Positions 11,855 to 58,555 of a DNA stretch of 64,000 nt are shown piece by piece; position 1 is the stretch's first letter, and each line of letters opens with the position of its first letter. The DNA lies in contig JAWVDC010000071.1 in the NCBI GenBank assembly GCA_033857715.1, positions 11,932 to 75,931 on the forward strand, in the 5' to 3' direction. The notes under the pieces were generated by a model. It saw only the letters and a program-made list of their open reading frames with translations. It was not told the DNA's origin and did not search any database. Both the position numbers and the translations under genes were made by a program. Origin of the DNA: Gaiellaceae bacterium (GTDB lineage: Bacteria > Actinomycetota > Thermoleophilia > Gaiellales > Gaiellaceae).

Positions 11855-13333
11855 ATGGAGCGGCCGCGTAGCCTTCCTTCGATGGCCGACGCGACCCCCG
11901 AGATCCGGTACGCGCGCAGCGGCGACGTGAACGTCGCCTACCAGGTCGTCGGCGACGGGCCGGTCGACATCGTCTTCGTCGAAGGGTCGTTCACGAATCG
12001 GCACGTGATGTGGGAGGCGCCGATCTACCGGCGCTTCATCGAGCGGTTCGCCTCGTTCGCGCGCGTGATCCTCTTCGACAAGCGCGGCATGGGTCTCTCC
12101 GACCGCGTCCAGGCCGGCACGCTCGAGGAGCGCATGGACGACGTTCGCGCCGTCATGGACGCAGTCGGCTCCGAGCGCGCCGCTCTATTCGGCGAGTCGG
12201 AGGGCGGGCCGCTCTCGATGCTCTTCGCTGCGACCCTCCCGGAGCGGACCGTCGCGCTGCTCCTGTGCGGGGCCGAGGTGAAGGAGCGGACGACCGACGA
12301 CTGGCCCTGGGGAGAAGCCACGCCCGAGGAGTTCGAGGCGTCGATGGCGGGACTGTGGGAGCGCTGGGGCCGGCGGCCCGCGTCGCTCGCGTCCTACCTG
12401 CCGAGCCGCGGCGACGATCCCTCGCTGCTCGACTGGTACCTCAAGCTCAAGCTGCAGTCGGCAACTCCGGCCGCCGCCGAGACGTTCATGCGGATGGCGT
12501 TCGACATCGACGTACGCCACGTCGCGCCGGTCATTCGCGTGCCGACGCTGATCCTTCACTCAGTTGGCGACCAGGTCTGCGACGTCGAGAACGGCCGGTT
12601 CCTCGCGCGCGTCATCCCCGGCTCGAAGTACGTCGAGCTCCCGGGAGGCGACCACGTGATGTTCGGCGAGCTCGCGGACCAGGCCCTCGCCGAGATCCGC
12701 GAGTTCCTGACCGGCGTGCGCGAGGCTCCGGAGCCCGACCGCGTGCTCGCGACCGTCCTCTTCACCGATCTCGTCGGCTCGACGGAGCACGCGCGCGAAG
12801 CCGGCGACCGGCGCTGGCGGGAGCTGTTGGAGACGCACCACGCCGCGGTGCGCCGCGAGCTCGTCCGCTTCGGCGGCCGGGAGATCGACACGGCCGGGGA
12901 TGGGTTCCTCTCAGCGTTCGACGGCCCGGCGCGCGCGATCCGTTGCGCGAAGGCCGTCGTCGAGGCGGTGAGCGGCCTCGGCCTGCAGATCCGCGCCGGC
13001 GTCCACACCGGCGAGTGCGAGGTGCACGGGGAGAAGCTCGCCGGGCTCGCCGTCCACGTCGGGGCGCGGGTCGCCGCCCAGGCGTCGCCGGGCGAGGTGC
13101 TCGTGTCGAGCACGGTGCAAGACCTCATCGCCGGCTCGGGGATCGCGCTCGAGGATCGCGGGCTGTTCGTCCTCAAGGGCTTCGACGGCGAGCGCCGCCT
13201 GTACGCCCTGGTCTACTCGCGAGCCGGTCGCAGGTCGCGCCGCGAGTGTGGGGCTCCAAGCGCAACGAAGCCGGCCGCGGCTGCTATTGCGCTGGCCGGG
13301 AACGCGAGAAACGGCCAGAGGCCTCCGACGTGA
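11855..13333 (+). CDS. alpha/beta-hydrolase fused to class III adenylate/guanylate cyclase domain (LipJ-like architecture)
   Basis: Track ORF of 492 aa; the likely start is Met 11882. The hydrolase part shows FDKRGMGLSD and GESEGG (nucleophile elbow). The cyclase part shows VLFTDLVGST...DTAGDGFLSAF...RAGVHTGE. The last 40 codons after ...RRLYALV look like read-through to the first available stop. Confidence 0.8.
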   Translation: MERPRSLPSMADATPEIRYARSGDVNVAYQVVGDGPVDIVFVEGSFTNRHVMWEAPIYRRFIERFASFARVILFDKRGMGLSDRVQAGTLEERMDDVRAVMDAVGSERAALFGESEGGPLSMLFAATLPERTVALLLCGAEVKERTTDDWPWGEATPEEFEASMAGLWERWGRRPASLASYLPSRGDDPSLLDWYLKLKLQSATPAAAETFMRMAFDIDVRHVAPVIRVPTLILHSVGDQVCDVENGRFLARVIPGSKYVELPGGDHVMFGELADQALAEIREFLTGVREAPEPDRVLATVLFTDLVGSTEHAREAGDRRWRELLETHHAAVRRELVRFGGREIDTAGDGFLSAFDGPARAIRCAKAVVEAVSGLGLQIRAGVHTGECEVHGEKLAGLAVHVGARVAAQASPGEVLVSSTVQDLIAGSGIALEDRGLFVLKGFDGERRLYALVYSRAGRRSRRECGAPSATKPAAAAIALAGNARNGQRPPT

Positions 13334-13929: not shown

Positions 13930-15153
13930 CTAGGCGGACTCGAATCGAAGCAAGTCCCGGACCGTCTCCCGCTCGCGGATCACCCGCGCCTTCGCGTCTG
14001 CGACCAGAACGACTGCGGGGCGCGGGAGGCCGTTGTACGTCGAGCCGAGCGCGAGGGTGTACGCGCCCGTGGCCGGGACCGCGAGGACGTCGCCGGCGCG
14101 CGGCTCCGGCAGCTCGACCGAGTCGATGAGGACGTCGCCGGACTCGCAGTGCTTGCCCGCGATCCGGTACTCGCCCGTCGGCTCCTCCTCCGCGCGATTT
14201 GCGAGGAGCGCTTCGTAACACGCGCCATAGAGCTGCGGGCGCGGGTTGTCGCTCATCCCGCCGTCGATCGCCGCGTACGTCACACCGCCCGAACGCTTGA
14301 CCGAGCCGATGCGGTAGAGCGTTACACCGGCGCGCCCGACGAGTGAGCGTCCGGGCTCGAGGATCGGCGTGACGCCTTCCGGCAGGCGCTCGACCAAAGG
14401 CCCGACGAAGTCCGCGACCGACGGGATCTGCTCCTCGCAATTGTGCCGCACGCCGAGGCCGCCGCCGAGGTCGATGTAGCGCGGCGTCCAGTCGAGCGCA
14501 CGGCAGAACGTCAGCACGCGCTCGAGCGCGACGAGGCTCTCCTCGACGCGGCCGAGCTGCGAGCCGACGTGGATGTGGACGCCCTCCACCGCGACGCCGA
14601 GCGCGAGCGCGGCGCCGACCTCGCGCGCCGCCTCGTCCGGCACGAGCCCGAACTTCGACTGCGCGTGCGCCGTCTGGATCGAACGGTGCGTCACCGCCTC
14701 GACGTCGGGTGTGATGCGCACCATCACGCGCTTCACGCCGGCCGCCGCCGCCCGCTGCGCCTCGCCCGAGACGTCGAGCACGACGAGCGCGCCCGCCTCG
14801 GCCGCGGCGCGCAGCTCCTCCTCCGACTTGTTGTTGCCGTGGAAGACGAGCTTCTCGCCGGGGATCCCCGCGGCTCGCGCGAACGCGAGCTCGCCGAGCG
14901 TCGAGACGTCCGCGCCGACGTCCTCCTCCGCAAGCAACTTCAACAGGGCGACGTTCGCGAACGCCTTCGTCCCGTAGACGATGACCGCGCCCGGAGCCGC
15001 CTCGCGGTACGCGCGCACCTGCTCGCGGATCGTCTCCTCGCAGTAGACGACGAGCGGTGTGCCGAACTCCGCAGCGAGGTCGCTCGCGCGCAGGCCGCCC
15101 AGCGAAAGCTCACCGTCGGCAACCCGCGCGGACGTCGGAAACAGCTCGAGCAC
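13930..15153 (-). CDS. lysA: diaminopimelate decarboxylase
   Basis: Track ORF of 407 aa with a GTG start. It shows the PLP-dependent group IV decarboxylase pattern: YGTKAF, HIHVGSQ, DLGGGLG, EPGRSLV, CESGD. Confidence 0.9.
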   Translation of the reverse strand: MLELFPTSARVADGELSLGGLRASDLAAEFGTPLVVYCEETIREQVRAYREAAPGAVIVYGTKAFANVALLKLLAEEDVGADVSTLGELAFARAAGIPGEKLVFHGNNKSEEELRAAAEAGALVVLDVSGEAQRAAAAGVKRVMVRITPDVEAVTHRSIQTAHAQSKFGLVPDEAAREVGAALALGVAVEGVHIHVGSQLGRVEESLVALERVLTFCRALDWTPRYIDLGGGLGVRHNCEEQIPSVADFVGPLVERLPEGVTPILEPGRSLVGRAGVTLYRIGSVKRSGGVTYAAIDGGMSDNPRPQLYGACYEALLANRAEEEPTGEYRIAGKHCESGDVLIDSVELPEPRAGDVLAVPATGAYTLALGSTYNGLPRPAVVLVADAKARVIRERETVRDLLRFESA

Positions 15154-15174
15154 CTTGCTAGTATCGGCGCAGTT

Positions 15175-15198
15175 ATGACGGAGCTGCTTCTTAGCTAG
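15175..15198 (+). CDS. candidate leader peptide MTELLLS (three consecutive Leu codons CTG CTT CTT)
   Basis: ATG ACG GAG CTG CTT CTT AGC TAG, read directly. The same residues form the last 7 aa of track ORF 14443-15198. There is no obvious SD; the ATG lies 11 nt after the -10-like box, so the transcript may be leaderless. Confidence 0.35.
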   Translation: MTELLLS

Positions 15199-15240
15199 GC
15201 CAGGGAGACAAGCGCGGCGACGCCGCGTCCGCCTCCCGCG

Positions 15241-15263
15241 ACCTCTCCTCGGAGAGGTTTTTT
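15241..15263 (+). terminator. intrinsic terminator-like hairpin 21 nt upstream of the leuS ATG
   Basis: ACCTCTC-CTCG-GAGAGGT forms a 7-bp perfect stem. A run of six T follows, the first of which pairs in the stem. Confidence 0.55.
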
Positions 15264-15283
15264 CGTTCTAGGAGACTTTCGCG

Positions 15284-17659
15284 ATGGACACACCGAGATA
15301 CGAGCCACACGAGATCGAAGCCAGATGGCAGCGCGTCTGGGAGGACGAGCGCGCCTTCAACACGCCCAACCCGGTCGAAGGCGAGCCGCAGGCGGAGAAC
15401 CACTGGTACCAGCTCGAGATGCTGCCGTACCCGTCGGGCCCGAGCCTCCACATGGGCCATGTCCTCAACTACACGATGGGTGACGTCCAGACGCACGTGC
15501 GCCGCCGCAGCGGCTGGCACGTCGTGCGGCCGATGGGCTGGGACGCGTTCGGCCTCCCCGCGGAGAACGCTGCGATCAAGGAAGGCCGCCATCCGCGCGT
15601 CACGATCGAGGCGAACATCGAGACGATGCGGCGCCAGATGAAGCGCCTCGGCTGGGCGATCGACTGGGAACGCGAGGTCGCCGCGCACCAGCCGACGTTC
15701 TACCGCTGGACGCAGTGGCTCTTCCAGCAGTTCGTCGCGCACGACCTCTGTTACCGGCGCGAGGGGCCGGTCAACTGGTGCCCGAACGACCAGACCGTCA
15801 TCGCGAACGAGTACGTCGTCGACGGCCACTGCGAGCGCTGCGGCGCCGAGGTCGAGCTGCGGAACATGACGCAGTGGTTCATGCGCACGACCGCGTACGC
15901 CGACGAGCTGCTCGAGTATCCGGGCGCGGACTGGCCGGAGAAGACGAAGGCGATCCAGCGCAACTGGATCGGGCGCTCCGAGGGCGCCGAGGTTCTGTTC
16001 CGCTGCGAGGAGACCGGCGACGACATCGCCGTCTTCACGACGCGCCCCGACACGCTGTTCGGCGCGACGTTCATGGTGCTCGCGCCCGAGCATCCGTTCG
16101 TCGACGCACACGCGAGCGACGAGGCGAAGGAGTACGCGCGGCGCGCCGGCGCGCGCTCGGTCGAGGATCGCTCAGCCGCGGTCGAGAAGACAGGCGTCTT
16201 CACGGGTCTCCACGCGGTCAATCCGGGGAATGGCGAGAAGCTCCCAATCTGGGTCGCCGACTACGTCCTCATGGACTACGGCACCGGCGCGATCATGGCC
16301 GTCCCCGTGCACGACGAGCGCGACGGCGAGTTCGCGGAGACGTTCTCACTGCCCGTCGTCCAGGTGATCGACGAGGCCGGGAAGCTCGTCAACTCCGGGC
16401 GTTTCGACGGCATGCCCGCCGACGAGGCGAAGCGTGCGATCGTCGCGGAACTCCAGCAGGACGGCCGCGCGAAGGCGACCGTCAACTACCGCCTCCGCGA
16501 CTGGAGCGTCTCGCGGCAGCGCTACTGGGGCTGCCCGATCCCCTTCATCCACTGCGAGAGGTGCGGCGTCGTGCCGGTGCCGGCGAGCGACCTGCCGGTG
16601 ATCCTCCCCGACATCGAGGACTACGCCCCGAAGGGCATGTCCCCGCTCGCGCAAAACGAGCAGTACATGAACGTCACATGCCCGCAGTGCGGCGGCGCGG
16701 CACGGCGCGACCCCGACACGATGGACACGTTCGTCGACTCGTCGTGGTACTTCCTGCGCTACATCGACTCGCACAACGACGAGGCGCCGTTCGACCCGTT
16801 CGTCGTCAACTACTGGCTGCCCGTCTCGCAGTACATCGGTGGCATCGACCACTCGACCGGCCACCTCCTGTACTCGCGCTTCTTCGTGAAGGCGATGAAC
16901 GACTGGGGGATGGTCGGCTTCCGCGAGCCGTTCGAGCGGGTGTTCCACCAGGGCTGGGTGACGCTCGGCGGGACGAAGATGTCGAAGACGAAGGGCAACG
17001 TCGAGGGGCCGGACGCGATCGTCGACTTTTACGGCGCCGACGCGACGCGGCTGACGATCCTCTTCATGGGGCCGGCGGATCAGGACATGGAGTGGACGCC
17101 CGACGGGGCGGAGGGCATCGGCCGCTTCCTGCGCCGGCTGTGGCGGCTCGTGCACGAAGTCGCGGAGAAGGCGCCGGCCTCCGGCGAGCCCGGCCCGCTC
17201 ACGCGCAAGGCGAACGAGACGATCGCGCGCGTGACCGACGACGTCCTGCGCCGCTTCCAGTTCCACACGCCGATCTCCGCGGTGATGGAGCTGTGCAACG
17301 AGATCTCGGCGGCGCCCGACGCGCCGGGCGCGCGCTTCGCGATGGAGACGGCCGTGTCGCTGATCCAGCCGTACGCGCCACACATCGCCGAGGAGCTGTG
17401 GGGCGTGCTCGGCCATGAGCGGCTGTGGGAGACCCCGTGGCCGGAGGCGGACGAAAGCCAGCTCGTGAGGGACACGTTCGAGCTCGTCGTGCAGGTCAAC
17501 GGCAAGGTGCGCGACCGCTTCGAGGTCGAGGCGGGGCTGAGCGAGGACGAGCTCGTCGCTCGCGCGCGCGGCTCGGAGCGAGTGCAGTCGTTCCTCGACG
17601 GAGCGGAGCCGCGAAAGACGATCGTCGTCCCCGGCAAGCTCGTGAACTTCGTCGTTTAG
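15284..17659 (+). CDS. leuS: leucyl-tRNA synthetase
   Basis: Track ORF of 791 aa. It has a HIGH-type motif (PYPSGPSLHMGHV), a KMSKS motif (GTKMSKTKGN) and the LeuS editing-domain layout. Confidence 0.95.
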   Translation: MDTPRYEPHEIEARWQRVWEDERAFNTPNPVEGEPQAENHWYQLEMLPYPSGPSLHMGHVLNYTMGDVQTHVRRRSGWHVVRPMGWDAFGLPAENAAIKEGRHPRVTIEANIETMRRQMKRLGWAIDWEREVAAHQPTFYRWTQWLFQQFVAHDLCYRREGPVNWCPNDQTVIANEYVVDGHCERCGAEVELRNMTQWFMRTTAYADELLEYPGADWPEKTKAIQRNWIGRSEGAEVLFRCEETGDDIAVFTTRPDTLFGATFMVLAPEHPFVDAHASDEAKEYARRAGARSVEDRSAAVEKTGVFTGLHAVNPGNGEKLPIWVADYVLMDYGTGAIMAVPVHDERDGEFAETFSLPVVQVIDEAGKLVNSGRFDGMPADEAKRAIVAELQQDGRAKATVNYRLRDWSVSRQRYWGCPIPFIHCERCGVVPVPASDLPVILPDIEDYAPKGMSPLAQNEQYMNVTCPQCGGAARRDPDTMDTFVDSSWYFLRYIDSHNDEAPFDPFVVNYWLPVSQYIGGIDHSTGHLLYSRFFVKAMNDWGMVGFREPFERVFHQGWVTLGGTKMSKTKGNVEGPDAIVDFYGADATRLTILFMGPADQDMEWTPDGAEGIGRFLRRLWRLVHEVAEKAPASGEPGPLTRKANETIARVTDDVLRRFQFHTPISAVMELCNEISAAPDAPGARFAMETAVSLIQPYAPHIAEELWGVLGHERLWETPWPEADESQLVRDTFELVVQVNGKVRDRFEVEAGLSEDELVARARGSERVQSFLDGAEPRKTIVVPGKLVNFVV

Positions 17660-22192: not shown

Positions 22193-24049
22193 GTGGAAGA
22201 GGCAGAGGACGAGGTCGACCGGGAGCGACGCGCGAGGCAGCTCGAACGCGACCGGCGCCGGCGCGAGCAGGGAAAGCAGACGTACTTCGAAGACACACCG
22301 GCCGACACGTTCGTCGAGTCGGCTCCGCCGGATGAGCCGACCGCGATCGTCGAGCGCAGCGACCTCGAGCTACCGCCCCCGGTAGAAGGCCTCGAGTCGA
22401 CTCCACCCGCTCGACCCAACGAGATCGTCGGGCGCAGCGATCTCGAGCTACCGGTCGAGGAGCCGCCCATAGAGGGAGAGTTGCCCGAGGCCCAGCGTGG
22501 GCTCGCCCGCTCGGGAGTCATCTTCGCGGTCGCAACGGGCCTTTCACGGGTCGTCGGCCTGGTCCGGGAGATCGTCCAGGCGGCGGTGTTCGGGATCTCG
22601 GGCCCGGTCAACGCCTTCGAGATCGCGTTCCTCATCCCGAACACGGTGCGCTCGCTCGTTGCCGACTCGGCGTTGTCGGCCGCGTTCGTCCCGGTCTTCA
22701 GCGACCTCCTCGTCAAAGGCGAGCGGCAGCGTGCATGGCGAGTCGCGTCGTCGCTCTTTTGGCTGATGCTGCTCGGGCTCGGAGGCCTGACGGCGCTCTT
22801 TGTCGTGATCGCGCCATGGGTGATGGCGCTCTTCGGCTTCGGTCCCGGCCACAAGTACGCGGTGCTCGCAGCCGGCCTCGCGCGCATTCTCTTCCCGCTC
22901 GTGCTCGTGCTCGGCCTGACGGGGATCGTCGTCGGAGTCCTCAACAGCTACGACCACTTCACCATTCCGGCGCTCACGCCGATCGCGTGGAACCTCGTCA
23001 TCCTCCTCGGGCTCGGGCTTGGCGTGCAGAGCTCGCACGCGCAGTCGACGCGGCTCTACTGGTACGCCGCGGCCATCCTCGTCGCGACCATCGTCCAGTT
23101 CCTGTTGCCGCTGCCCTGGCTGCGCGGCCGGGACGACCGACTACGGATGGCGATCGACATCCACGACCCCGCCGTAAAGCAGACGTTCAAGCTGATGCTG
23201 CCGGTGACGATCGGGCTCGGCCTGATCAACATCAACGCGGCGATCGACCAGCTCTTCGCGACGCACTTCCTCGATCCGCTTCAGGCGCCCGCGGCGATCG
23301 TGCGCGCTTTCCGCCTGTACATGCTCCCGCAGGGCGTGTTCTCCGTCGCCGTCGCGACCGTCCTGTTCCCGCTGCTGTCGCGGCACTCGGCGCGCGAGGA
23401 CTGGGAGGGGTTCAAGACGACGATCGCGATGGGCCTCCGGTTCATCTCGTTCCTCCTGCTTCCGGCAAGCGCGGCGGCGGCTGTGCTGGCCATGCCGATC
23501 GTGCGGCTCCTGTACCAGCACGGTGTGTTCACGGCCGAGCAGACGCACGTCGTTGCGCCGTGCCTGGCGGCGTTCGCGCTCGGGTTGACGTTCAACGGGA
23601 CGATGCTGATGCTCAACCGCGGCTTCTTCTCGCTGCAGTCGGCGTGGATCCCGACCGTCGTCGCGCTCATGAACCTCGCGATCAATGCGGGCCTCGACGC
23701 GGCGTTCTACCGCGTCGGAGTCTGGGGGATCCCGCTCTCGACCTCGATCGTCAACATCGCCGGCACGTGGGCGATGCTCATCCTCTTCCGGCGGCGCCTC
23801 GGCGGCTTCGACATGCGGGAGACGGTGGAGCGGTTCATGCTCGTCGCGGTCGCGTCGGCGGTGCTCGCTGCGGTCGCGTGGTGGACATGGCACCTCCTCG
23901 ACTTGGGGCTCGGCCAGTCCCTGGCGGCGCAGATCGTCTCTCTCGGCAGCGCGCTCGTCCTCGGCTACGCCGCCTTCTTCGGTGTGTGCCGGTTGTTGGA
24001 CGTGCGTGAGCTGGAGACGCTGCTGCGCCTGCGACGCGGCGGCGCTTGA
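22193..24049 (+). CDS. murJ: lipid II flippase MurJ with ~100-130 aa low-complexity N-terminal extension
   Basis: Track ORF 22109-24049. A TTG at 22109 would overlap the rpsT start, so GTG 22193 (or 22130) is preferred. The MurJ core starts near 22500 (GLSRVVGLVREIVQAAVFG..GPVNAFEIAFLIPN) and has about 14 helices. Confidence 0.8.
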   Translation: MEEAEDEVDRERRARQLERDRRRREQGKQTYFEDTPADTFVESAPPDEPTAIVERSDLELPPPVEGLESTPPARPNEIVGRSDLELPVEEPPIEGELPEAQRGLARSGVIFAVATGLSRVVGLVREIVQAAVFGISGPVNAFEIAFLIPNTVRSLVADSALSAAFVPVFSDLLVKGERQRAWRVASSLFWLMLLGLGGLTALFVVIAPWVMALFGFGPGHKYAVLAAGLARILFPLVLVLGLTGIVVGVLNSYDHFTIPALTPIAWNLVILLGLGLGVQSSHAQSTRLYWYAAAILVATIVQFLLPLPWLRGRDDRLRMAIDIHDPAVKQTFKLMLPVTIGLGLININAAIDQLFATHFLDPLQAPAAIVRAFRLYMLPQGVFSVAVATVLFPLLSRHSAREDWEGFKTTIAMGLRFISFLLLPASAAAAVLAMPIVRLLYQHGVFTAEQTHVVAPCLAAFALGLTFNGTMLMLNRGFFSLQSAWIPTVVALMNLAINAGLDAAFYRVGVWGIPLSTSIVNIAGTWAMLILFRRRLGGFDMRETVERFMLVAVASAVLAAVAWWTWHLLDLGLGQSLAAQIVSLGSALVLGYAAFFGVCRLLDVRELETLLRLRRGGA

Positions 24050-58471: not shown

Positions 58472-58555
58472 TGCCGAAGGTGGGAATCGAACCCACACTC
58501 CCCGGAGGGAACCGGATTTTGAGTCCGGCGCGTCTGCCAGTTCCGCCACTTCGGC
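58472..58555 (-). tRNA. tRNA-Leu (anticodon CAA), long variable arm, no encoded CCA
   Basis: The reverse complement is GCCGAAGTGGCGGAACTGGCAGACGCGCCGGACTCAAAATCCGGTTCCCTCCGGGGAGTGTGGGTTCGATTCCCACCTTCGGCA. The acceptor stem is GCCGAAG/CTTCGGC. The anticodon stem is CCGGA/TCCGG with loop CTCAAAA. The T-arm is GTGGGTTCGATTCCCAC. Confidence 0.85.

What the first reader, a model, noticed from the sequence alone, without database searches (positions are those of the whole stretch)
15159..15283. Leu-codon mini-ORF plus intrinsic terminator directly upstream of leuS: candidate ribosome-mediated attenuator
The 130-nt gap between divergent lysA and leuS contains, on the leuS strand, these elements in order:
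- A -10-like TAGTAT at 15159-15164.
- An 8-codon ORF, ATG ACG GAG CTG CTT CTT AGC TAG (15175-15198, MTELLLS). It has three consecutive Leu codons. Two are CTT, which looks like a minority Leu codon in this window (CTC/CTG dominate; not counted).
- A GC hairpin at 15212-15228.
- A textbook terminator, ACCTCTC-CTCG-GAGAGGT followed by a run of six T (15241-15263).
- AGGAG at 15270-15274, then the leuS ATG at 15284.

GGGAG (15203-15207) lies 5 nt after the mini-ORF stop. It can pair either with CTCCC (15233-15237) or with TCTCC in the 5' arm of the terminator (15244-15248). The fold could therefore depend on where a ribosome sits on the Leu codons.

This is the logic of pheM-pheST and leuL attenuation, applied here to the Leu-tRNA synthetase gene itself. 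The ATG is only 11 nt from the -10-like box, which would fit a leaderless short ORF as reported in mycobacteria. I am not aware of a described leuS leader of this type, but I cannot search.
Basis: partly seen in the sequence, partly recalled or inferred. Interest (0 to 1): 0.72.

Follow-up and report, generated by a model that had tools for sequence, protein, structure and literature searches.

The report
Leucine-sensing attenuator ahead of leuS
A 7-codon mini-gene with three leucine codons, a conserved hairpin and a transcription terminator sit just upstream of the leucyl-tRNA synthetase gene in about 70 related soil actinobacteria (Gaiellaceae); it is most likely a ribosome-read switch that raises enzyme production when charged leucine tRNA runs low, a kind of control already reported for leuS in Streptomyces.

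Summary
Every listed element is at the stated coordinates.

The same layout recurs upstream of leuS in 71 of 79 Gaiellaceae/Thermoleophilia genomes that have upstream sequence. In order it is:
- an extended -10 box
- a near-leaderless ORF M-x(1-3)-L-L-(L)-x-stop
- a 4-nt spacer
- hairpin P1
- a 2-4 nt linker
- an intrinsic terminator, then leuS

The mini-ORF evolves like coding sequence:
- start codons ATG or GTG
- stops TAG, TGA or TAA, never TGG
- indels of whole codons only
- Leu codon positions 1-2 invariant, position 3 free

It also favours the rare codon CTT: 55% of leader Leu codons against 4.6% in window genes.

No Rfam family matches. A Leu-sensing, ribosome-mediated attenuator is therefore well supported.

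But it is only 5 bp and competes with P1. It never beats the terminator at equilibrium, and one subclade that keeps everything else has lost it. How a stalled ribosome causes read-through is unresolved.

The kind is known: leuS leader-peptide attenuators were predicted in Streptomyces in 2005 and seen by RNA-seq in 2021. This is a new, unusually minimal variant in another actinobacterial class.

The parts
15156..15164 (+). Extended -10 promoter element TGC-TAGTAT. The predicted transcription start lies 0-4 nt upstream of the mini-ORF ATG.
   Evidence: Read. TGNTANNNT is present in 57 of 68 distinct leaders and occurs only twice in the whole window. The gap from the -10 box to the start codon is 6-8 nt in 29 loci and 9-11 nt in 39 loci; it is 10 nt in the window. 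The transcription start itself is inferred, not mapped.
15175..15198 (+). Leader mini-ORF ATG ACG GAG CTG CTT CTT AGC TAG (MTELLLS*). It has no Shine-Dalgarno sequence and is probably leaderless or near-leaderless.
   Evidence: 69 of 72 leaders keep an ORF of the form M-x(1-3)-L-L-(L)-x-stop. Start codons are 55 ATG and 14 GTG. Stops are 59 TAG, 6 TGA and 4 TAA, never TGG. Lengths are 7 codons (42 loci) or 6 codons (27 loci). There are 32 distinct nucleotide versions.
15184..15192 (+). Regulatory Leu codons CTG CTT CTT. CTT is a rare codon.
   Evidence: In alignment A1, positions 1 and 2 of the two universal Leu codons are invariant in 68 of 68 sequences and position 3 varies (T/G/C and T/C). 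CTT accounts for 101 of 184 leader Leu codons, against 4.6% in window genes and 0 of 47 in leuS.
15199..15202 (+). Fixed 4-nt spacer between the stop codon and hairpin P1.
   Evidence: The spacer is 4 nt in 67 of 68 distinct leaders (alignment A1). The distance from the last Leu codon to P1 is 10 nt, and this holds even in L079, where the stop codon is lost.
15203..15237 (+). Hairpin P1. The outer helix is GGGAG (15203-07) with CUCCC (15233-37). The inner GC helix is 15212-18 with 15222-28.
   Evidence: P1 is predicted in all 68 leaders, with a mean energy of -21.6 kcal/mol. The outer helix covaries: GGGAG/CUCCC, GGAAGC/GCUUCC, GGAGG/CCUCC and GGGAGC/GCUCCC. 99.6% of cells are paired, against 50-68% when the structure is slid.
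15204..15208 (+). Candidate antiterminator 5' strand GGAGA. It shares bases with the 5' arm of P1.
   Evidence: It forms 5 Watson-Crick pairs with 15244-48. Mean duplex energy is -8.4 kcal/mol, against -9.9 for the P1 outer helix. In the window, 2.2 base pairs are expected with the ribosome on the last Leu codon and about 0 with the ribosome at the stop.
15240..15263 (+). Intrinsic terminator T: GACCUCUC, loop CUCG, GAGAGGUU, then a U run (U6 at 15258-63). 15244-48 (UCUCC) is the candidate antiterminator 3' strand.
   Evidence: Found by the terminator scan. The core CCUCUC/GAGAGG is invariant in 72 of 72 leaders, and the basal pair covaries GC/AU/GU. It contains the only T run of 6 or more in the window.
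15270..15274 (+). Shine-Dalgarno sequence AGGAG of leuS.
   Evidence: Read, 9 nt upstream of the ATG. AGGAG, AGAGG or GGAG occupies the same place in most relatives.
15284..17659 (+). leuS, the regulated gene (leucyl-tRNA synthetase, 791 aa).
   Evidence: ORF. Pfam finds the LeuRS editing domain, the class I catalytic core and the anticodon-binding domain. It is 61-92% identical to 80 Gaiellaceae LeuRS sequences.

Best explanation
This is a ribosome-mediated (leader-peptide) transcription attenuator that sets leuS expression according to the supply of charged tRNA-Leu.

Proposed sequence of events:
1. An extended -10 promoter starts a transcript at, or a few bases before, the AUG of a 7-codon ORF. 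A ribosome loads on it without a Shine-Dalgarno sequence.
2. Behind the polymerase the RNA folds into hairpin P1, whose 5' arm begins 4 nt after the stop codon. Two to four bases further on lies a strong intrinsic terminator.
3. When Leu-tRNA is plentiful, the ribosome runs through CUG-CUU-CUU to the stop codon. Its leading edge then covers or unwinds GGGAG/GGAGA, so that strand can pair with nothing. The terminator 5' arm is free, the terminator closes, and a transcript of about 90 nt is released.
4. When Leu-tRNA is scarce, the ribosome stalls on the Leu codons, 10-16 nt short of P1. GGAGA stays exposed. It partitions between P1 (with CUCCC) and a short antiterminator with UCUCC in the terminator 5' arm. 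That lowers termination and lets polymerase read into leuS. Because the terminator is efficient, even a modest antiterminator population would multiply read-through several-fold.

Shown here: the elements, their conservation, the coding-type evolution of the ORF, the rare-codon bias, the P1 and terminator structures, and the fixed spacings.

Inferred: the transcription start, translation of the ORF, the stalling, and above all the link between P1 or ribosome position and termination.
For: Conservation and specificity:
- Of 79 related leuS loci with upstream sequence, 71 carry the terminator core, exactly once each and always upstream of leuS. A covariance model built from the leader finds no other copy in 672 kb.
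- The leader stays with leuS even where the upstream neighbour is not lysA.

Coding signature of the mini-ORF:
- Start codons swap between ATG and GTG.
- The stop is always TAG, TGA or TAA: all six sequences with TG have A as the third base.
- The only length change is one whole codon.
- In the two universal Leu codons, positions 1-2 are invariant and position 3 varies.
- The other residues are free.

Codon choice and geometry:
- CTT is 55% of leader Leu codons, against 4.6% genome-wide in the window and none in leuS.
- Geometry is fixed: LL, one codon, stop, 4 nt, P1, then 2-4 nt to the terminator.
- P1 and the terminator are supported by 99.6% pairing and by compensatory changes.

Ribosome-mask folding:
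- P1 stays intact with the ribosome on the Leu codons. Its outer helix is lost with the ribosome at the stop.
- The GGAGA:UCUCC pairing is possible only in the stalled state. In the window it is worth 2.2 expected bp, against about 0 at the stop.
- Across the family its duplex energy is close to that of the P1 outer helix: -8.4 against -9.9 kcal/mol.

Context and precedent:
- The extended -10 is conserved in 57 of 68 leaders and is rare in the window.
- Leaderless-type starts look common in this genome.
- Leader-peptide attenuators on leuS exist in Streptomyces, one of them a leaderless LLL peptide followed by a hairpin and a U stretch.
Against: - Nothing here is experimental.
- With the terminator 3' arm present, the terminator has probability of about 1.0 in the free, Leu-stalled and stop states in all ten leaders shown, so no antiterminator wins at equilibrium.
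- The candidate antiterminator is only 5-6 bp. Its strand is also the 5' arm of P1, and P1's partner is transcribed first and is not removed by a stalled ribosome.
- At the decision point the antiterminator reaches 2 or more expected bp in only 17 of 68 leaders.
- The overall probability that the terminator 5' arm is paired does not differ between states: 0.24 against 0.27.
- Eight leaders of the GGAAGC subclade have lost the complementarity but keep the ORF, the spacings, P1 and the terminator.
- In 39 loci, including the window, the -10 box is 9-11 nt from the ATG. The ORF may therefore carry a 2-4 nt leader rather than being strictly leaderless.
- Nothing in the model explains why the terminator stem sequence is invariant.
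Confidence: 0.62

Rival explanations
1. The Leu-sensing attenuator has no RNA antiterminator and works by steric hindrance. P1 acts as a rigid bridge. It brings a ribosome stalled at the 5' end (leading edge at the base of P1) to within a few nucleotides of the base of the terminator. Ribosome and RNA polymerase would then clash if the terminator stem closed, so termination fails. A ribosome that reaches the stop opens the P1 outer helix and then leaves. That removes the constraint, and the terminator closes.
For: - No family-wide antiterminator exists.
- The universally conserved features are geometric: 10 nt from the last Leu codon to P1, 4 nt from the stop to P1, and 2-4 nt from P1 to the terminator. 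P1 itself is kept by covariation.
- The GGAAGC subclade keeps all of this without the 1:3 pairing.
- L079 lost its stop codon but kept the Leu-to-P1 spacing.
Against: - I found no precedent for a hairpin-bridged clash, and the idea rests on rough distance estimates from general knowledge.
- It does not explain the invariant sequence of the terminator stem.
- It cannot be tested with sequence tools.
Confidence: 0.13
2. The terminator is a constitutive, leaky attenuator. The Leu mini-ORF acts after transcription, by one of two routes. In the first, the P1 3' arm (CCUCCC, anti-SD-like) pairs with the leuS Shine-Dalgarno sequence once the terminating ribosome opens P1, giving translational attenuation as in mycobacterial leaderless sORFs or the actinobacterial LEU element. 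In the second, a ribosome stalled at the very 5' end protects the leuS mRNA from 5'-end-dependent decay.
For: - In some leaders the SD is far more exposed with the ribosome on the Leu codons than at the stop. In L048 the values are 0.71 against 0.04. Eleven of 58 leaders differ by more than 0.2, and none differs the other way.
- Leaderless sORFs that control translation of the downstream gene are shown in mycobacteria (10.1101/834739).
- Pairing of Leu-codon runs with an SD is proposed for leuA.
- In L033, L042, L049, L061 and L064 the only SD-like sequence near the leuS ATG is the terminator 3' arm.
Against: - The mean difference in SD exposure is small: 0.34 against 0.24.
- P1 would re-form as soon as the ribosome leaves.
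- A perfectly conserved strong terminator with a U6 tract makes little sense if termination is not the regulated step.
- The stability effect is not testable here.
Confidence: 0.12
3. P1 plus the terminator is a binding site for a trans-acting factor, such as LeuRS itself (autoregulation), another protein, or uncharged tRNA-Leu in a T-box-like manner. On this view the ORF-like features are secondary.
For: - The terminator stem and the inner P1 stem are unusually invariant in sequence, beyond what pairing alone requires.
- No RNA antiterminator explains regulation.
Against: - No T-box or other Rfam family matches, even at E up to 10.
- The stop-codon-preserving covariation, the whole-codon indel, the ATG/GTG starts and the wobble-only variation in the Leu codons are hard to explain without translation.
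- The loops of P1 and the terminator vary freely.
Confidence: 0.05
4. There is no regulation: the ORF is a chance occurrence next to an ordinary terminator or insulator.
For: Short ORFs are frequent in any sequence. The z-score for folding of the whole region is unremarkable (-0.53).
Against: - Conservation of the ORF, the spacing, P1 and the terminator in about 70 genomes spans LeuRS identities from 92% down to 61%.
- The ORF shows a coding signature and a rare-codon bias.
- The terminator sits between a promoter and an essential gene.
Confidence: 0.02

Closest known systems
Streptomyces leuS leader-peptide attenuator (leuL2). Predicted in S. coelicolor and S. avermitilis by Seliverstov et al. 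2005 (PMC1262725). Supported by RNA-seq in S. lividans TK24 by Droste et al. 2021 (PMC8079986).
   Same: - The regulated gene is the same (leuS).
- The phylum is the same (Actinomycetota).
- The short ORF is transcribed leaderless.
- It has three consecutive Leu codons (MRAVRLLLSEPR* against MTELLLS*).
- A hairpin and a U stretch follow it.
   Different: - The host belongs to a different class (Thermoleophilia, Gaiellaceae).
- The ORF is 6-7 codons instead of 12, and only one codon separates the Leu run from the stop.
- The Streptomyces elements were described as classical, with an antiterminator hairpin. Here the large hairpin P1 does not overlap the terminator, and only a 5-bp alternative pairing exists.
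- Sequence homology between the two could not be tested, because no Streptomyces sequence was within reach.
Classical enterobacterial leader-peptide attenuators (trpL, leuL, pheM-pheST); this comparison rests on established knowledge.
   Same: - A short ORF is enriched in codons of the cognate amino acid, including rare ones.
- An intrinsic terminator precedes the structural gene.
- Ribosome position is the sensed variable.
- A ribosome at the stop codon masks the strand that would otherwise form the antiterminator.
   Different: - There is no 1:2 / 2:3 / 3:4 series.
- The Leu codons are not part of any conserved helix.
- The competitor of the antiterminator (the P1 3' arm) lies downstream of the sensor strand and is not displaced by a stalled ribosome.
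- The ORF is leaderless and far shorter.
- There is no match to Rfam Leu_leader or any other leader family.
Mycobacterial leaderless poly-Cys sORF attenuators ('ribulon'; Canestrari et al. 2020, 10.1101/834739).
   Same: A leaderless short ORF whose run of cognate codons lets ribosome stalling control the downstream gene in an actinobacterium.
   Different: Those act on translation, by blocking a duplex that sequesters the downstream ribosome-binding site, and they have no intrinsic terminator. Here a canonical terminator is the most conserved part, and SD sequestration is weak on average.
Actinobacterial LEU element upstream of leuA (Seliverstov et al. 2005).
   Same: [quoted passage not shown] The CUN-CUN run is complementary to SD-like purine boxes. 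Here CUUCUU is complementary to AGGGAG and to GAGAGG in the 7-codon clade.
   Different: The LEU element is a pseudoknot with a base stem pairing the Leu codons with the SD, and it has no obvious terminator. In this family such pairings are not conserved across the whole set.

Membership tests
Ribosome-mediated leader-peptide transcription attenuators | A short ORF upstream of the regulated gene, enriched in codons for the cognate amino acid and evolving as coding sequence | tested here: met
   The ORF M-x(1-3)-LL(L)-x-stop is present in 69 of 72 leaders. Start and stop codons are preserved by covariation, the only indel is one whole codon, and Leu codons vary only at the wobble position.
Ribosome-mediated leader-peptide transcription attenuators | An intrinsic terminator between the leader ORF and the structural gene | tested here: met
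   An 8-bp GC-rich stem with a 4-nt loop and a U6 tract at 15240-15263. It is conserved in 72 of 72 leaders.
Ribosome-mediated leader-peptide transcription attenuators | An antiterminator helix that excludes the terminator and forms only when the ribosome stalls on the regulatory codons | tested here: inconclusive
   GGAGA:UCUCC (5 bp) is available only in the stalled state. It is populated in 17 of 68 leaders at the decision point. It never wins at equilibrium. It is lost in the GGAAGC subclade.
Ribosome-mediated leader-peptide transcription attenuators | Read-through responds to the supply of the amino acid or to tRNA charging | not testable with these tools
   This needs Term-seq, Northern blots or reporter experiments.
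Streptomyces leuS leader (leuL2) | A leaderless Leu-run ORF followed by a hairpin and a U stretch, directly upstream of leuS | tested here: met
   The architecture matches the published description. Leaderless status here is inferred from the position of the -10 box only.
Streptomyces leuS leader (leuL2) | Sequence or structure homology to the Streptomyces element | not tested
   No Streptomyces leuS upstream sequence was available.
T-box riboswitch | A match to the T-box covariance model (Stem I specifier loop, and a T-box bulge pairing with the tRNA 3' end) | tested here: not met
   No T-box hit at the gathering threshold in the window, nor at E up to 10 in 15100-15350. The element is only about 90 nt long.
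Rfam amino-acid leader families (Leu_leader and similar) | A match to the family covariance model | tested here: not met
   Only chance-level hits (istR, RNAI and others, all far below their gathering scores).
Leaderless sORF translational attenuators (mycobacterial type) / LEU element | A duplex that sequesters the downstream gene's ribosome-binding site and is relieved by the stalled ribosome | tested here: inconclusive
   SD exposure is 0.34 in the Leu-stalled state and 0.24 at the stop on average. The difference is clear in 11 of 58 leaders and never reversed.

The most novel reading that the evidence does not exclude
This would be an attenuator that senses ribosome position without any antiterminator helix. 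A covarying hairpin with length-invariant linkers (4 nt to the stop codon, 2-4 nt to the terminator) bridges a ribosome stalled on a 5'-terminal 7-codon ORF to the base of the terminator. Ribosome and RNA polymerase then collide sterically and the terminator cannot close. A ribosome that reaches the stop codon opens the bridge, and termination is restored.
Probability: 0.13. Interest if true: 0.8.

Novelty: new variant of a known kind. Interest (0 to 1): 0.5.

Why it matters
If confirmed, this would be one of the smallest leader-peptide attenuators known: 6-7 codons, without a Shine-Dalgarno sequence, about 90 nt in all.

It would also show that aminoacyl-tRNA synthetase control by ribosome stalling is widespread in Thermoleophilia, a largely uncultured and abundant group of soil actinobacteria.

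The family offers about 70 natural variants. They include a subclade that lost the only candidate antiterminator and single genomes that lost the ORF, the stop codon or P1. These variants make one question directly testable: does a stalled ribosome need an RNA antiterminator to suppress an intrinsic terminator?

On the practical side, the covariance model can annotate this leader in metagenome-assembled genomes, where it is currently unannotated.

Tried and rejected
- Rfam (gathering threshold on the whole window; E up to 10 on 15100-15350) gave no family.
- Equilibrium folding with ribosome masks: the terminator always forms, so no classical switch is visible.
- An alignment-wide search for conserved alternative helices found several in the closely related 7-codon clade: Leu codons with AGGGAG, Leu codons with GAGAGG, and GGGAG with CUCUC. 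None passes 80% in the more diverse 6-codon clade.
- Pairing of the purine-rich 5' half of the ORF with the terminator 5' arm looked attractive in the ribosome-free fold. It is no better than shuffled ORFs (mean z -0.39) and is weaker than shuffles in many 6-codon leaders, so I rejected it.
- SD sequestration by the freed P1 3' arm is only a weak average effect.
- The covariance-model search for further copies upstream of other genes found none in the window or in 80 loci (672 kb).
- The look-up of the exact LeuRS in public assemblies found nothing on record.
- The protein homology search returned only close Gaiellaceae LeuRS (79-92% identity), so it did not give more distant lineages or Streptomyces for comparison.
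- I considered reversed logic, in which stalling causes termination. I rejected it on physiological grounds: it would create a positive feedback loop on an essential synthetase.
Full report
**1. The observation**

- TAGTAT at 15159-64.
- The ORF ATG ACG GAG CTG CTT CTT AGC TAG at 15175-98.
- GGGAG at 15203-07 and CTCCC at 15233-37.
- A GC hairpin at 15212-28.
- The terminator GACCTCTC-CTCG-GAGAGGTT at 15240-59, with T6 at 15258-63. The terminator scan also found it.
- AGGAG at 15270-74 and an ATG at 15284.

The ATG opens a 791-aa ORF. Pfam identifies it as leucyl-tRNA synthetase. The divergent upstream gene is a PLP-dependent DAP/ornithine decarboxylase, that is lysA-like.

Three refinements:
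- The -10 box is an extended one, TGC-TAGTAT (15156-64).
- The GC hairpin is the inner part of a larger hairpin, P1 (15203-15237).
- The best alternative pairing is GGAGA 15204-08 with TCTCC 15244-48, five Watson-Crick pairs.

CTT is indeed rare. It is 4.6% of Leu codons in 35 window genes, and none of the 47 Leu codons of leuS.

In this 69% G+C window, TGNTANNNT occurs twice on both strands together. A run of 6 or more T occurs once, and a run of 6 or more A never. The terminator core pattern occurs once.

**2. Relatives**

A scan of one genome per species with the LeuRS protein returned 80 loci. All are Gaiellaceae or Thermoleophilia metagenome-assembled genomes, with LeuRS 61-92% identical.

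Printing the upstream regions shows the same architecture in nearly all of them. Of the 79 loci with upstream sequence, 71 carry CCTCTC-N(3-9)-GAGAGG, exactly once each and always just upstream of leuS.

A covariance model built from 68 distinct leaders finds one copy per locus. It finds nothing else in 672 kb, including the rest of the window. The leader stays with leuS even where the upstream neighbour is not lysA.

Exceptions:
- L030, L031, L052-54 and L080 have no leader.
- L010 also lacks the terminator core; only 78 nt of upstream sequence are available there because the contig ends, so nothing can be concluded from it.
- L021 has a deletion that fuses P1 to leuS.
- L033 has lost the ORF and P1 but kept the terminator.
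- L039 has the ORF MRSGLT*.
- In L079 the stop is lost and the ORF runs into P1.

**3. Is the mini-ORF translated?**

Sixty-nine of 72 leaders encode M-x(1-3)-L-L-(L)-x-stop. Across 32 distinct nucleotide versions:
- The start is ATG (55) or GTG (14).
- The stop is TAG (59), TGA (6) or TAA (4), never TGG. All six TG- cases carry A in the third place.
- The only length variation is one whole codon (7 or 6 sense codons).
- In the two universally aligned Leu codons, positions 1-2 are invariant in 68 of 68 and position 3 varies (T46/G16/C6 and T53/C15).
- The flanking residues are free.

This pattern is expected of a translated regulatory ORF in which only the identity of the Leu codons matters. 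CTT makes up 101 of 184 leader Leu codons.

No Shine-Dalgarno sequence precedes the ORF. A TANNNT box lies 6-8 nt upstream in 29 loci and 9-11 nt upstream in 39 loci; it is 10 nt in the window. Fifty-seven of 68 carry the TGN extension. Sixteen long ORFs in the window also have TANNNT 5-9 nt before their start codon, so leaderless expression is probably common in this organism.

The transcription start is inferred, not mapped. In the window's group a 2-4 nt leader is possible.

**4. RNA structure**

P1 folds in all 68 leaders, with a mean energy of -21.6 kcal/mol. Its outer helix covaries: GGGAG/CUCCC, GGAAGC/GCUUCC, GGAGG/CCUCC and GGGAGC/GCUCCC. Its inner GC helix shows one compensatory change.

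On a model-based alignment, 99.6% of cells pair, against 50-68% for slid controls. Three pairs carry double changes.

The terminator core is invariant. Only its basal pair covaries (GC, AU or GU).

Spacings are fixed:
- Stop, 4 nt, P1 in 67 of 68 leaders.
- Last Leu codon to P1, 10 nt.
- P1 to the terminator, 2-4 nt.

No Rfam family matches, even at E up to 10.

**5. Mechanism**

I folded the leaders with the ribosome footprint masked, covering the RNA from the 5' end to 12 nt beyond the first base of the A-site codon.
- With a Leu codon in the A site, P1 is intact.
- With the stop codon in the A site, GGGAG is covered and the P1 outer helix is lost.

The fixed geometry therefore turns 'did the ribosome reach the stop?' into 'is GGGAG free?'.

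What GGGAG does next is less clear. With the full terminator present, the terminator has probability of about 1.0 in all three states in the ten leaders I examined. There is no classical equilibrium switch.

Its duplex energy is close to that of the P1 outer helix, -8.4 against -9.9 kcal/mol on average.

At the decision point the RNA is exposed only as far as the terminator loop. There, with the ribosome on the last Leu codon, the pairing contributes 2 or more expected base pairs in 17 of 68 leaders (window 2.2) and about 0 with the ribosome at the stop. In several leaders it is the minimum-free-energy fold, helped by a GGCC:GGCC helix.

Expression scales with the small read-through fraction of an efficient terminator. 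Even partial occupancy could therefore give a several-fold response; this is inference.

Against the pairing:
- It is short.
- It shares its strand with P1, whose partner is made first.
- It is broken in eight leaders of the GGAAGC subclade that keep everything else.
- Averaged over the family, the terminator 5' arm is no more paired in the stalled state than in the stop state, 0.24 against 0.27.

Other candidate helices do not hold up:
- Leu codons with AGGGAG or with GAGAGG are confined to the closely related 7-codon clade.
- The ORF 5' half with the terminator arm is no better than shuffled sequence.
- SD sequestration by the freed P1 3' arm is marked in a minority (11 of 58) and small on average.

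My conclusions:
- The general reading, a Leu-tRNA-sensing ribosome-mediated attenuator of leuS, is well supported.
- A structure-independent (steric) coupling or a post-transcriptional component remains possible.
- Reversed logic, in which stalling causes termination, is rejected. It would put an essential synthetase under positive feedback.

**6. Comparison with what is known**

Leader-peptide attenuators upstream of leuS were predicted in S. coelicolor and S. avermitilis in 2005 (PMC1262725). RNA-seq in S. lividans TK24 then described leuL2: a leaderless 12-codon ORF (MRAVRLLLSEPR*) followed by a hairpin and a U stretch upstream of leuS (PMC8079986). Leaderless sORF attenuators are established in mycobacteria, where they act on translation (10.1101/834739).

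A full-text search found no report for Thermoleophilia or Gaiellales.

The present element is therefore not a new kind. It differs from the known ones in four ways:
- Its class of host.
- Its minimal size.
- The large non-overlapping hairpin between the ORF and the terminator.
- The absence of a robust antiterminator.

Homology to the Streptomyces element could not be tested.

**7. Verdict**

- Observation: confirmed.
- Interpretation: partly supported. The attenuator reading is strongly backed by comparative evidence. The specific switch is only partly backed. The claim of no precedent is wrong.
- Novelty: a new variant of a known kind.
- Interest: moderate. It rests mainly on about 70 natural variants that could show whether ribosome-dependent attenuation can work without a conventional antiterminator.

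Noticed in passing
window 15153-15165 (both strands): The lysA-like gene starts with GTG at 15153 on the - strand. That is 6 nt downstream of GATACT (- strand, 15165-15160), which overlaps the leader's TAGTAT (15159-64, + strand) by 5 bp. The two are face-to-face -10 boxes, and lysA is probably leaderless. The block GAGCACnnTGCTAGTAT is conserved in about 39 related loci.
   Followed up: partly
window, e.g. 17669 (+), 22193 (+), 40646 (+), 53824 (+), 5090 (-): Sixteen ORFs of at least 150 aa have a TANNNT box 5-9 nt upstream of their ATG or GTG. This is well above the roughly 3 expected from base composition (my own estimate, not a tool result), so leaderless mRNAs appear common in this genome.
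   Followed up: partly
window 22169-22161 (- strand) and downstream to about 22130: This is the only other extended -10 motif (TTGCTACCAT) in the window. It is followed by the hairpin CCCGCG-TTTC-GCGGG, and it is divergent from a leaderless-looking 618-aa ORF at 22193 (+). It may be a small RNA or another leader.
   Followed up: no
L021 2934-3010: The leader ORF and P1 are intact, but P1 is fused directly to about codon 5 of leuS. The terminator, the SD and the start codon are missing. This is either a deletion between short repeats or an assembly artefact.
   Followed up: partly
L033, L039, L079 (leader regions near 2900-2990, 99-188 and 2879-2980): These are natural degenerate variants. L033 lost the ORF and P1 (another hairpin takes their place) but kept the terminator. 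L039 has the ORF MRSGLT* with a single Leu. L079 lost the stop codon, so its ORF (MDLGLTGDRES*) runs into P1, yet the Leu-to-P1 spacing is unchanged.
   Followed up: partly
L033, L042, L049, L061, L064 (just upstream of the leuS start): The leuS ATG lies 7-8 nt after the end of the terminator core GAGAGG in four of these loci (about 13 nt in L033), and there is no separate Shine-Dalgarno sequence. The terminator's 3' arm is the only SD-like sequence nearby, so in these genomes the terminator hairpin may also affect translation.
   Followed up: no
all 72 leaders; window 15242-47 and 15252-57: The terminator stem sequence CCUCUC/GAGAGG is invariant, although LeuRS identity falls to 61% and the neighbouring P1 helix covaries. 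No conserved alternative partner was found, so the constraint is unexplained.
   Followed up: partly
window 58472-58555 (-): A tRNA-Leu(CAA) gene. It is the only tRNA in the window.
   Followed up: no
window 11855-13333 (+): A 492-aa ORF that combines an alpha/beta-hydrolase domain with an adenylate/guanylate cyclase catalytic domain.
   Followed up: no
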